From: Escherichia coli
Lineage (GTDB): Bacteria; Pseudomonadota; Gammaproteobacteria; Enterobacterales; Enterobacteriaceae
Assembly: GCF_029227855.1 (NCBI RefSeq)
Contig: NZ_CP074356.1
Strand: one strand, 5' to 3'
Length of the DNA: 64,000 nt
Made by a program: the position numbers. The stretch's first letter is position 1, and the number at the start of each line of letters is the position of its first letter. Shown here one piece after another: positions 40,301 to 43,300 of the stretch.

Positions 40301-43300
40301 TCTGCTGACCTTCGCGGTGATGTTAACCGTCGGGCTGGTGATCGGGAACCTTACTGCGGGCGTGCGTTATCAGGCGCGGGTAGCCCGTTACCGCGAGCAA
40401 CGCACACGGCACTTATATGAAATGTCGAAAGCTCTGGCGGTGGGCCGCAGTCCGCAGGACATCGCCGCCACCAGCGAACAGTTTATTGCCTCCACGTTTC
40501 ATGCCCGCAGTCAGGTGCTGTTACCCGATGACAACGGTAAATTGCAGCCGTTAACACATCCGCAAGGAATGACCCCGTGGGACGATGCCATCGCGCAGTG
40601 GAGTTTTGATAAAGGCCTGCCTGCGGGCGCGGGCACCGACACGTTACCCGGTGTACCGTACCAGATTTTGCCGCTAAAAAGCGGCGAGAAAACCTACGGA
40701 CTGGTGGTGGTGGAACCGGGGAATCTGCGCCAGTTGATGATCCCGGAACAGCAGCGCCTGCTGGAGACATTTACGTTGTTAGTCGCCAATGCCCTTGAGC
40801 GGCTGACACTGACCGCCAGCGAAGAACAGGCGCGGATGGCAAGCGAACGTGAACAGATCCGCAACGCCCTGCTGGCGGCGCTTTCGCATGATTTACGCAC
40901 TCCGCTCACGGTGCTGTTCGGTCAGGCAGAAATCTTAACGCTCGATCTGGCGAGCGAAGGATCGCCCCACGCCCGCCAGGCCAGCGAGATTCGTCAGCAT
41001 GTGCTGAACACCACCCGACTGGTGAATAATCTACTGGATATGGCACGAATTCAGTCCGGCGGCTTTAATTTGAAGAAAGAGTGGTTAACGCTGGAAGAAG
41101 TGGTCGGCAGCGCGCTGCAAATGCTGGAACCGGGTTTATCGTCGACCATCAATCTTTCTCTGCCAGAACCGCTGACCTTAATCCACGTTGACGGGCCACT
41201 CTTTGAACGGGTGCTGATTAATCTGCTGGAGAACGCGGTGAAATACGCGGGGGCGCAGGCCGAAATTGGTATCAATGCCCACGTTGAGGGCGAAAATCTA
41301 CAACTGGATGTCTGGGATAACGGCCCCGGTCTTCCACCAGGCCAGGAGCAGACGATATTTGATAAGTTTGCTCGCGGGAATAAAGAGTCGGCGGTACCGG
41401 GTGTAGGGCTTGGGTTGGCAATTTGTCGGGCGATAGTGGATGTACACGGCGGCACCATTACCGCATTCAACCGACCGGAAGGTGGTGCCTGTTTTCGTGT
41501 TACACTTCCCCAGCAAACAGCCCCTGAACTTGAAGAATTTCATGAGGATATGTGACAAACGTTCTGATTGTTGAAGATGAACAGGCTATTCGTCGCTTTC
41601 TGCGCACGGCGCTGGAGGGCGACGGGATGCGCGTCTATGAGGCCGAAACGCTGCAACGCGGCTTGCTGGAAGCGGCTACCCGTAAGCCAGATTTGATTAT
41701 TCTCGATCTCGGCCTGCCCGATGGTGATGGGATTGAGTTTATCCGCGACCTGCGCCAGTGGAGCGCAGTGCCAGTGATTGTGCTTTCCGCACGCAGCGAA
41801 GAGAGCGACAAAATCGCCGCGCTGGATGCCGGAGCGGATGATTACCTGAGTAAGCCGTTTGGCATTGGCGAATTGCAGGCCCGTCTGCGCGTCGCTTTAC
41901 GCCGCCACTCCGCCACCACCGCGCCCGATCCGCTGGTGAAATTTTCCGATGTTACCGTCGATTTAGCAGCTCGTGTGATCCATCGCGGTGAGGAAGAGGT
42001 GCATCTCACCCCGATTGAGTTCCGCCTGCTGGCGGTGCTGCTGAATAACGCCGGGAAAGTGCTCACCCAGCGCCAGCTCCTTAACCAAGTGTGGGGGCCA
42101 AACGCGGTCGAACACAGTCATTATTTGCGTATTTATATGGGACATCTGCGACAAAAACTGGAGCAAGATCCCGCCCGCCCCCGCCACTTCATTACTGAAA
42201 CCGGTATTGGGTATCGGTTTATGCTTTAGGCGGTTAAATGCTGGATCCGGCATGAACGCCTTATCCGACCTACACATCGTCCCGTAGGCATGATAAGACG
42301 CGTCAGCGTCGCATCAGGCATGGCACTCATCGCGATATGTTTAATGCGTATTTATCTGTTTCAACTCTTGCTGGCATTTTTCTGACTGGCAGCGTCGCAA
42401 CTCGATAATCCCGACATGCATCATCGAGCCAAAAAATCCGCTTTCGCTGACATAATCCTCATTAACAATCGGTCGAGTGCCAGGCTTGCCCTGGCAAACC
42501 CGCATAAAAAATGAGGTGTAGCACTGCCAGCCACGATTTAAACTGCTCTTTTCTTGTGGTGACATATCGTGAAGATAAGTAAGTTCTTTTTCGTTCCCGC
42601 CTGACAACTGCCAGCGGCGGGTATTATCAGGTAAGTTATCGCCACGGCAATTTGTCTTACACCGGGAAGGCGCAATATTTACCGCAATGCTACCCGTTAA
42701 TCCTCTGGTTTTATCTTTAGGGGTCAGTAACCAGTCACCAGCTAATGATGATTGTTCAGGTTGGGCGCATGCTGTCAGCAGTAGTGTGGCGGTAATTAAT
42801 GCCACTCTGACGACCAGACTCCTTTTGGTCTTCATTTTGAATTCCCTTGAGCTATTCAGTTTGTTGGCAAAGTGCTCGTTGTTCATGCCGGATGCAGCGT
42901 GAACGCCTTATCCGGCCTACAAAATAGCGCAAATTCAATATATTGCACCATCTTCCCAGGCCTGATAAGCGTAGCGCATCAGGCAGTCATAAGCAAAAAA
43001 GGGCGATCTTCCGACCGCCCTTTTTCTTATTAAATGTGTTTACGCGTTTTTCAGAACTTCGCTAACAATCTCAACCGCTTCTTTCTCAATTTGCTTGCGA
43101 TGTTCTTCCCCAAGGAAGCTTTCACAATAGATCTTATAGGCGTCTTCCGTGCCTGACGGACGCGCGGCGAACCAGCCGTTGTCAGTCATCACTTTCAGAC
43201 CGCCGATAGAAGCACCATTGCCCGGTGCCGCAGTCAGGCGCGCGGTGATCGGGTCACCTGCCAGGGTGCTGGCGCTCACCATTTCCGGAGACAGCTTAGA

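What the first reader, a model, noticed from the sequence alone, without database searches (positions are those of the whole stretch)
42230..42340. kdpE lies directly next to ybfP; the speF-potE region present here in K-12 is absent
Only about 110 bp, made up of REP/BIME palindromes, separates the kdpE stop from the ybfP stop. From my memory of the K-12 map, ybfK, speF, potE and the ybfG remnants lie between kdpE and ybfP. If that is right, this strain lacks the inducible ornithine decarboxylase / putrescine antiporter module, or carries it elsewhere, with the REP cluster marking the junction.
Basis: partly seen in the sequence, partly recalled or inferred. Interest (0 to 1): 0.45.

Follow-up and report, generated by a model that had tools for sequence, protein, structure and literature searches.

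The report
E. coli strain lacking speF-potE genes
This E. coli strain really lacks the acid-inducible ornithine decarboxylase and putrescine antiporter genes that K-12 carries next to kdpE, but the gap is a common inherited gene-content variant found in about 5% of sequenced strains, not a fresh deletion or a new kind of element.

Summary
kdpE ends at 42229 and ybfP (minus strand) ends at 42341. The 111 bp between them are two REP elements in inverted orientation. In K-12 the same two points are 5,149 bp apart and hold speFL, speF, potE, ybfI' and ybfG'. The window is 100% identical to E. coli JNEC-KY178. That chromosome has no speFL-speF-potE anywhere, and only the paralogue speC remains.

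The K-12 map is not the typical one. Among 5,426 complete E. coli genomes I see four states of the kdpE-pgm interval:
- **S1, about 59%:** speFL-speF-potE only, no ybfP.
- **S2, about 34%, K-12-like:** speFL-speF-potE plus ybfI'-ybfG-ybfP.
- **S3, 253 genomes (4.7%), this window and EAEC 042:** ybfP only.
- **S0, about 100 genomes:** neither.

S3 equals S0 plus a 647-bp ybfP cassette flanked by a direct repeat of one REP. Its spacer after kdpE matches S0 alleles, including two divergent Escherichia genomes. A relative with near-identical kdpD carries speF-potE and diverges from the window starting in kdpE. I read this as allele exchange by homologous recombination in the flanks, not a private deletion. 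It is ordinary accessory-genome variation and of low interest.

The parts
41552..42229 (+). kdpE, response regulator of the kdp operon. Homology with speF-bearing alleles stops at its stop codon.
   Evidence: ORF; NCBIfam NF007820 at 487.7 bits; blastn to K-12 ends at 42227; 3' end alignment.
41000..41600 (.). Approximate left boundary of the divergent tract. To the left the window is near-identical to the speF-bearing strain elppa5; to the right it is about 2.5% diverged.
   Evidence: Mismatches per 500-nt bin against L089: 0-1 over 37500-41500, then 6 and 12 in 41500-42227.
42230..42340 (.). 111-bp kdpE-ybfP spacer, a BIME made of two inverted REPs. No remnant of speFL, speF, potE, ybfI or ybfG.
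   Evidence: The spacer is 97-99% conserved across the 253 genomes with this junction.
42240..42273 (+). Left REP (Y type), degenerate copy. It is the left arm of the direct repeat that brackets the ybfP cassette.
   Evidence: Direct repeat D1, 42238-42274 and 42885-42921, 86%. The same pair is 36/36 identical in strain 042. Alignment.
42284..42319 (-). REP (Z2 type), inverted relative to the Y REP.
   Evidence: 1 mismatch to the recalled consensus, 0 expected by chance.
42341..42835 (-). ybfP, 164-aa predicted lipoprotein of unknown function and the only cargo of this allele.
   Evidence: PGAP CDS in the identical genome; 93% to K-12 YbfP; no Pfam or NCBIfam family; lipobox LLLTAC read from the translation.
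42885..42990 (.). Second BIME (Y REP, 35-nt linker, Z REP) between the ybfP start and pgm. It is homologous to the whole kdpE-pgm spacer of genomes that have neither speF-potE nor ybfP.
   Evidence: Y REP consensus at 42887-42920, 1 mismatch. Sequence comparison with L005, L006 and strain N3.
42996..43025 (.). G+C-rich hairpin flanked by A and T runs just after the pgm stop, terminator-like on both strands. In genomes without ybfP it sits directly between potE and pgm.
   Evidence: Inverted repeat I2; the same sequence lies after potE in E2348/69 and elppa5.
43040..44680 (-). pgm, the conserved right flank of the variable interval.

Best explanation
The window carries the 'ybfP-only' allele (S3) of a multi-allelic kdpE-pgm interval.

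**Shown.**
- speFL-speF-potE are absent from this chromosome, and only the paralogue speC is left.
- The same junction is in 253 of 5,426 complete E. coli genomes.
- S3 equals the empty allele (S0: kdpE, short spacer, Y REP, linker, Z REP, terminator, pgm) plus a 647-bp block (Z2 REP, ybfP, its upstream region) bracketed by a direct repeat of the Y REP.
- A strain with near-identical kdpD carries speF-potE instead, and the two sequences diverge from kdpE onward.

**Inferred.**
- The absence was inherited or imported as a whole allele by homologous recombination in the conserved kdp and pgm flanks. It was not made by a recent deletion from a K-12-like arrangement.
- The ybfP block entered or leaves by recombination at the repeated REP.
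- K-12's own arrangement is a composite. It is a speF-potE allele joined to a kdpE-ybfG-ybfP allele, and the kdpE 3' relic ybfI' marks the joint.

**Expected consequence, from established knowledge of SpeF/PotE and not tested here.** The strain should show no low-pH, ornithine-induced putrescine production or export, while basal putrescine synthesis through SpeC is kept.
For: **Absence.**

**Frequencies.**
- Junction at 80% coverage or more in 253 genomes, including EAEC 042.
- speFL-speF-potE at 80% coverage or more in 5,038 genomes, any match in 5,133.
- ybfP in 2,112 genomes.
- ybfI'-ybfG in 1,773 genomes.
- An artificial S0 query is covered in one place in 353 genomes, which is S3 plus S0.
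- A true S0 is seen in strain N3.

**Most E. coli have no ybfP here.** E2348/69, O157:H7 and elppa5 read kdpE-speFL-speF-potE-pgm.

**S3 is related to S0.**
- The sequence after the kdpE stop in the window and 042 ('G..AATT' plus Y REP) matches S0 alleles of L005, L006 and N3. It does not match speF-bearing alleles.
- By eye, N3's spacer reads as 042's spacer with the 647-bp block removed between the two 36-nt perfect repeats.

**The allele is old.**
- ybfP is 93.9% identical to K-12, against 98.1% for pgm-seqA.
- Further S3-type loci carry ybfP alleles only 65-79% identical in protein.

**Recombination.** Bin-wise mismatches against elppa5. KdpC, KdpD and Pgm have identical protein accessions in both strains, but KdpE differs.

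**K-12 is a composite.** ybfI' matches the last 49 codons of KdpE at 84%. A 43-nt direct repeat flanks ybfP-ybfG-ybfI'.
Against: - I could not determine the direction of the exchange between the window lineage and the speF-bearing relative. The two genomes are mosaics of identical and roughly 2% diverged tracts.
- I did not find an extant kdpE-ybfG-ybfP allele, which the composite model for K-12 requires, and I did not search for it exhaustively.
- The kdpE stop codon is not a clean marker. One S3 locus (L094) has TGA.
- The state counts come from coverage thresholds of BLAST summaries, not from per-genome calls. The roughly 100 S0 genomes and the percentages are estimates.
- Phylogroup assignment (042 = D) is from my own knowledge and was not tested here.
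Confidence: 0.75

Rival explanations
1. A single 5.1-kb deletion from a K-12-like ancestor (kdpE-speFL-speF-potE-ybfI'-ybfG-ybfP), caused by recombination between REP elements, with the REP pair left as the scar.
For: ybfP is otherwise seen only in K-12-like genomes. REPs occupy the junction.
Against: - K-12 has no REP at the kdpE-speFL border or at the ybfG-ybfP border to recombine.
- The 111-bp spacer has no K-12 counterpart except generic REP similarity.
- The sequence after kdpE matches S0 alleles instead.
- ybfP is 6% diverged from K-12, against about 2% for pgm.
- The window's kdpE 3' end is 94% identical to K-12 kdpE but 83% to ybfI', so it is not a kdpE/ybfI' hybrid.
Confidence: 0.08
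2. The empty state is ultimately a loss. speFL-speF-potE was present in the Escherichia ancestor, was precisely deleted once long ago to give S0, ybfP was added later, and the resulting alleles have since spread by recombination.
For: - speFL-speF-potE sits at exactly this site in E. albertii, in E69, in some Citrobacter (others lack it) and in species of Enterobacter, Kluyvera and Raoultella, with homologous sequence after the kdpE stop.
- speF is often pseudogenised or disrupted in E. coli (PMC13322260; L002 frameshift; IS1 insertion and a near-total deletion).
Against: - kdpE directly next to pgm is the state in Serratia, Pantoea, Dickeya, Pectobacterium and Yersinia, in several Citrobacter and Enterobacter, and in two divergent Escherichia genomes. 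The empty state could therefore be the older one that was retained.
- No remnant of the operon is left in S0 or S3.
Confidence: 0.4
3. speF-potE is present but lies elsewhere in this genome, on a chromosomal island or a plasmid.
For: None found. Two plasmid places for speFL-speF-potE exist somewhere in the whole collection.
Against: The chromosome NZ_AP045174.1 shows no megablast match. It shows only one speF-like place by sensitive blastn, which is accounted for by speC.
Confidence: 0.02
4. Assembly artefact: a collapse across REP repeats removed 5 kb.
For: Repeats lie at the junction.
Against: The same junction is in 253 independently assembled complete genomes, at 97-100% identity. REPs of about 35 nt are far too short to collapse a long-read or hybrid assembly.
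Confidence: 0.01

Closest known systems
E. coli K-12 MG1655 kdpE-ybfP interval (b0689-b0694: ybfP, ybfG', ybfI', potE, speF, speFL, kdpE)
   Same: Same flanking genes (kdpFABCDE, ybfP, pgm, seqA) in the same order and orientation. Same BIME and terminator between ybfP and pgm.
   Different: K-12 has 5,149 bp (speFL, speF, potE, the kdpE relic ybfI' and the DUF2625 pseudogene ybfG') where the window has a 111-bp REP pair. ybfP is 6% diverged.
Enteroaggregative E. coli 042 locus EC042_RS03725-RS03730 (NC_017626.1)
   Same: Identical architecture: kdpE, 111-bp BIME, ybfP, BIME, pgm. KdpE has the same protein accession, WP_000186109.1.
   Different: 98.1% identity over the junction. The left Y REP is a perfect 36-nt copy of the right one in 042 but is degenerate in the window (9 differences in positions 17-54 of the alignment).
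REP/BIME elements of enterobacteria (repetitive extragenic palindromes; from my knowledge, the Gilson/Bachellier classification)
   Same: About 35-nt imperfect palindromes matching the Y and Z2 consensus, extragenic, between convergent genes, in inverted pairs, many copies per genome.
   Different: Nothing unusual. Whether this pair terminates or stabilises the kdpE and ybfP transcripts was not tested, and no canonical intrinsic terminator lies in the spacer.
Loss of amino-acid decarboxylase/antiporter modules in E. coli lineages, for example cadBA in Shigella/EIEC (from my knowledge; these genes are among those screened in PMC7283534)
   Same: A lineage-specific absence of an acid-inducible decarboxylase plus its antiporter.
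   Different: I have no evidence here of selection for the loss. No IS or scar is present, and the state is an old allele that also occurs in environmental and animal isolates.

Membership tests
speFL-speF-potE operon (inducible ornithine decarboxylase / putrescine-ornithine antiporter) | speF and potE coding sequences present between kdpE and pgm | tested here: not met
   No tblastn or blastn match in the window. The kdpE-pgm interval holds only ybfP.
speFL-speF-potE operon (inducible ornithine decarboxylase / putrescine-ornithine antiporter) | The operon is present anywhere else on the chromosome | tested here: not met
   NZ_AP045174.1 gives 1 place with the chimeric megablast query. With sensitive blastn it gives 2 places against 3 in speF-bearing genomes. 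The extra place is explained by speC. Plasmids of the assembly were not examined one by one.
REP/BIME | Match to a REP consensus (about 35-nt imperfect palindrome) | tested here: met
   Z2 consensus at 42284-42319 with 1 mismatch. The Y REP at 42240-42273 is 86% identical to the consensus-like copy at 42887-42920. The consensus strings were recalled from memory.
REP/BIME | Extragenic, in inverted pairs, highly repeated in the genome | tested here: met
   The pair lies between convergent stop codons. The two REPs are on opposite strands. Queries containing them hit a median of 9-15 places per genome.
REP/BIME | Binding of IHF or gyrase, or mRNA 3' end protection | not testable with these tools
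   The individual REP hairpins fold, but the overall z-score is -1.05 and there are no binding data.
KdpE (NCBIfam NF007820 equivalog) | Full-length match above the curated cutoff, located after kdpD | tested here: met
   487.7 bits against a cutoff of 325, residues 1-225. kdpD overlaps its start.
YbfP lipoprotein | Orthology to K-12 b0689, plus a signal peptide with a lipobox cysteine | tested here: met
   93% identity over 164 aa. The N-terminus MKTKRSLVVRVALITATLLLTAC was read from the translation. No curated family exists. The lipobox was judged by eye only.

The most novel reading that the evidence does not exclude
The kdpE-pgm interval is a long-lived cassette locus in Escherichia. Alternative cargoes (speFL-speF-potE, ybfP, ybfG-ybfP, or nothing) persist as diverged alleles and are swapped between lineages by recombination in the flanks. 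REP copies and the kdpE 3' end act as recurrent joints. The K-12 reference arrangement is itself a fusion of two such alleles.
Probability: 0.5. Interest if true: 0.3.

Novelty: already known. Interest (0 to 1): 0.15.

Why it matters
**For this strain.** JNEC-KY178 and the other ~250 S3 genomes (042-like) should lack the acid- and ornithine-inducible putrescine production and export system. They keep SpeC.

**For annotation.** K-12 is a poor template for this interval. Only about a third of E. coli share its ybfI'-ybfG-ybfP block, and most strains have no ybfP at this site.

**For evolution.** The locus is a small, clean example of alternative gene cargoes held between conserved flanks, with short relics recording past joints (ybfI', duplicated kdpE ends, repeated REPs). 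None of this opens a new question. It is routine accessory-genome variation.

Tried and rejected
- **kdpE/ybfI' crossover.** I tested whether the window's kdpE 3' end is a hybrid made by recombination with ybfI'. It is 94% identical to K-12 kdpE and 83% to ybfI'. Rejected.
- **YbfP relatives in other genera.** I looked in the kdpE-pgm gaps of the other loci with gaps over 350 bp (189 gap ORFs in all, phmmer E up to 10) and found none. A search of 5.8 billion proteins found 27 clusters, and every one that carries a source name is E. coli.
- **First sensitive speF search.** One search was uninformative because many genomes tied at 100% in the sucA anchor and the target genome was not listed. I repeated it with a unique anchor.
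- **Literature.** Searches on speF/potE with phylogroup, ybfP, ybfI with kdpE, and 042 with speF found no paper describing this polymorphism. One paper reports speF among the most often pseudogenised metabolic genes in E. coli.
- **Terminator in the spacer.** No intrinsic-terminator-like site lies inside the 111-bp spacer. The fold of the spacer is not more stable than shuffles (z -1.05).
- **Stop codon as a marker.** TAG/TAA against TGA looked like a marker of the empty against the occupied state. It fails in L094, so I dropped it.

Full report
**What is in the window**

kdpE occupies 41552-42229 on the plus strand and ends with TAG. It is a full-length match to the NCBIfam KdpE equivalog, 487.7 bits against a cutoff of 325. 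ybfP lies on the minus strand at 42341-42835. It is an intact 164-aa protein, 93% identical to K-12 YbfP, with an N-terminal lipobox-like LLLTAC. pgm follows on the minus strand at 43040-44680.

The 111 bp between the two stop codons (42230-42340) consist of two REP elements:
- A degenerate Y-type REP at 42240-42273.
- An inverted Z2-type REP at 42284-42319, with 1 mismatch to the consensus and none expected by chance.

A second BIME at 42885-42990 and a hairpin at 42996-43025 lie between ybfP and pgm.

**Comparison with K-12**

The annotated K-12 record reads pgm, ybfP, ybfG' (b0691), ybfI' (b4636), potE, speF, speFL, kdpE. Pairwise blastn shows homology with the window up to 42227 (the kdpE stop) and again from 42340 (the ybfP stop). 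The 5,149 bp of K-12 in between have no counterpart here.

**Is the module elsewhere in this genome?**

The window is 100% identical to E. coli JNEC-KY178, NZ_AP045174.1. I could not scan one genome directly, so I used chimeric queries. Each query joined an anchor piece that puts this genome at the top of the hit list to the probe, and I read the number of matching places in the record.

| Query | Mode | Places in JNEC-KY178 | Places in speF-bearing genomes |
|---|---|---|---|
| 4.2 kb sucAB + K-12 speFL-speF-potE | megablast | 1 | 2-3 |
| pgm-seqA + 1.6 kb of speF | sensitive blastn | 2 | 3 |
| pgm-seqA + speC | megablast | 2 | 2 (collection median; speC test, not a speF test) |

speF and speC are 70.5% identical over 1,757 nt, so the sensitive search detects speC. 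The speC query shows that speC is present. The one speF-like place on this chromosome is therefore speC. The plasmids of the assembly were not examined individually.

**How common is the arrangement?**

Counts are out of 5,426 complete E. coli genomes.

| Feature | Genomes |
|---|---|
| Window junction covered at 80% or more (97.4-100% identity in the 60 best rows listed), including EAEC 042 | 253 |
| speFL-speF-potE, any match | 5,133 |
| speFL-speF-potE, 80% coverage or more | 5,038 |
| ybfP | 2,112 |
| ybfI'-ybfG block, 80% coverage or more | 1,773 |

E2348/69, an O157:H7 strain and strain elppa5 read kdpE-speFL-speF-potE-pgm with no ybfP. An artificial 'empty' query (kdpE 3' end joined to the right-hand BIME and pgm) is covered in one place in 353 genomes. 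That number includes single-piece matches such as strain N3, where kdpE and pgm are 163 bp apart.

From these counts I estimate four states:
- **S1:** speFL-speF-potE only, about 59%.
- **S2:** K-12-like, about 34%.
- **S3:** ybfP only, as in the window, 4.7%.
- **S0:** neither, about 2%.

These are estimates from summary counts, not per-genome calls.

**Other species**

I fetched 80 loci around KdpE relatives from species-representative genomes and scored them with K-12 proteins.
- **kdpE directly next to pgm:** Serratia, Pantoea, Dickeya, Pectobacterium, Yersinia, several Citrobacter and Enterobacter, and two divergent Escherichia genomes (L005, L006).
- **kdpE-speFL-speF-potE-pgm:** E. albertii, the Escherichia genome E69, some Citrobacter, and species of Enterobacter, Kluyvera, Raoultella and others.
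- **ybfP, ybfG and the kdpE relic:** only in E. coli.

The interval is variable across the whole order.

**Anatomy of the alleles**

- In the window, 042, O158:H23, N3, L005 and L006, the sequence after the kdpE stop is a short 'G..AATT' stretch followed at once by a Y REP. In speF-bearing genomes it is an AT-rich leader that is homologous from E. coli to Citrobacter.
- The right-hand BIME of the window is homologous to the whole spacer of the S0 alleles.
- In 042 the two Y REPs that bracket ybfP are a perfect 36-nt direct repeat 647 bp apart. In the window the pair is 86% identical.
- By eye, N3's spacer reads as 042's spacer with the block between those repeats removed.

S3 and S0 therefore differ by gain or loss of one REP-bracketed ybfP block. 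Neither carries any fragment of the operon.

**Age of the allele**

The window's ybfP is 93.9% identical to K-12's, while pgm-seqA is 98.1% and kdpDE is 96.7%. YbfP has no curated family, and a search of 5.8 billion proteins found 27 clusters, of which every named one is E. coli. Two of those clusters, at 65% and 79% protein identity, also lie in kdpE-ybfP arrangements without speF-potE. The ybfP-only state is therefore diverse and old.

**How the window lineage came to have it**

I compared the window with elppa5, which has speF-potE. Mismatches per 500-nt bin are as follows:
- 0-2 over 22.5-31 kb.
- 0-1 over 37.5-41.5 kb.
- 6 and 12 in the two bins covering 41.5-42.2 kb (kdpE).
- About 1-2% through pgm and beyond.

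KdpC, KdpD and Pgm have the same protein accessions in both strains, but KdpE differs. On the right side, strain GMF054 is 100% identical in pgm-seqA and also lacks speF. This mosaic is what homologous recombination in the flanks produces. I could not tell which of the two lineages was the recipient.

**K-12 as a composite**

ybfI' matches KdpE residues 177-225 at 84%. It is about equally distant from all the kdpE alleles I compared, at 83-88%. A 43-nt direct repeat at 81% identity, made of ybfP-upstream sequence plus the start of a REP, flanks ybfP-ybfG-ybfI' in K-12. The simplest reading is that a speF-potE allele was joined to a kdpE-ybfG-ybfP allele, which left the second kdpE's 3' end behind. 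I did not find that second allele in extant form.

**Rivals**

- **Single deletion from a K-12-like ancestor.** Disfavoured by the lack of REPs at the K-12 borders, by the homology to S0, and by the divergence of ybfP.
- **Ancient loss or retained emptiness.** Whether the empty state goes back to an ancient precise loss of the operon or to retention of an older empty state is open. The outgroup pattern allows both. speF decay is common in E. coli.
- **Relocation of the operon or an assembly artefact.** Effectively excluded.

**Verdict**

It describes a known kind of gene-content polymorphism that is visible in hundreds of public genomes. I found no paper describing it. The details worked out here are of modest evolutionary interest: four alleles, REP-bracketed ybfP, a composite K-12 arrangement, and exchange by flanking recombination. 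Interest is low.

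Noticed in passing
window 48090-48815: An IS200-type element sits between fur and chiQ. The ORF 48204-48713 (-) and the Rfam STnc490 hit at 48672-48795 (-) lie inside it. In strain elppa5 the same 726-bp block lies instead between glnS and nagE, where PGAP annotates an IS200C transposase.
   Followed up: partly
L006 9704-10054 and L095 640-960: In a divergent Escherichia genome and in a metagenome contig, the last 50-90 nt of kdpE together with the following BIME are tandemly duplicated. In L006 the joint falls on a short CCGCCC-type microhomology between the pgm terminator and kdpE. Relics of the kdpE 3' end, like K-12 ybfI', seem to arise repeatedly at this site.
   Followed up: partly
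L003 5351-5393 and 6865-6907 (K-12 715350-715392 and 716864-716906): A 43-nt direct repeat (81% identity) brackets ybfP-ybfG'-ybfI' in K-12. A second repeat pair involves the potE and pgm terminators (31 nt, 81%).
   Followed up: partly
window 42231-42268: The left Y REP and the bases before it differ from the 042 and O158:H23 alleles at 8 positions within 22 nt, while the rest of the spacer is identical. This may be a small conversion patch from another REP copy.
   Followed up: no
L002 5631-7599; hits H108 and H140: speF is decaying in other strains. It is frameshifted with an internal stop in AR_0114, interrupted by IS1 in B-JRPT-4119, and reduced to 63 nt of speFL in MB10.
   Followed up: no
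summary: 81 records have a best match to K-12 speFL-speF-potE at only 60-80% identity under megablast. They may be speF-less genomes whose speC shares a 28-nt word with speF. That would put the number of genomes lacking speF-potE nearer 370 than 293.
   Followed up: no
window 29546-33697 (-): A 1,383-aa ORF at the place where relatives annotate an RHS core protein next to ybfA. Its 31-33.5 kb part is much more diverged from elppa5 than the neighbouring DNA.
   Followed up: no
window 61549-62249: A cluster of seven tRNA genes on the plus strand after asnB (Rfam RF00005 hits).
   Followed up: no
L088 10057-11405: In O158:H23 strain CFIAFB20140388 an IS3-family element has inserted between ybfP and pgm, within or next to the right-hand BIME.
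   Followed up: no
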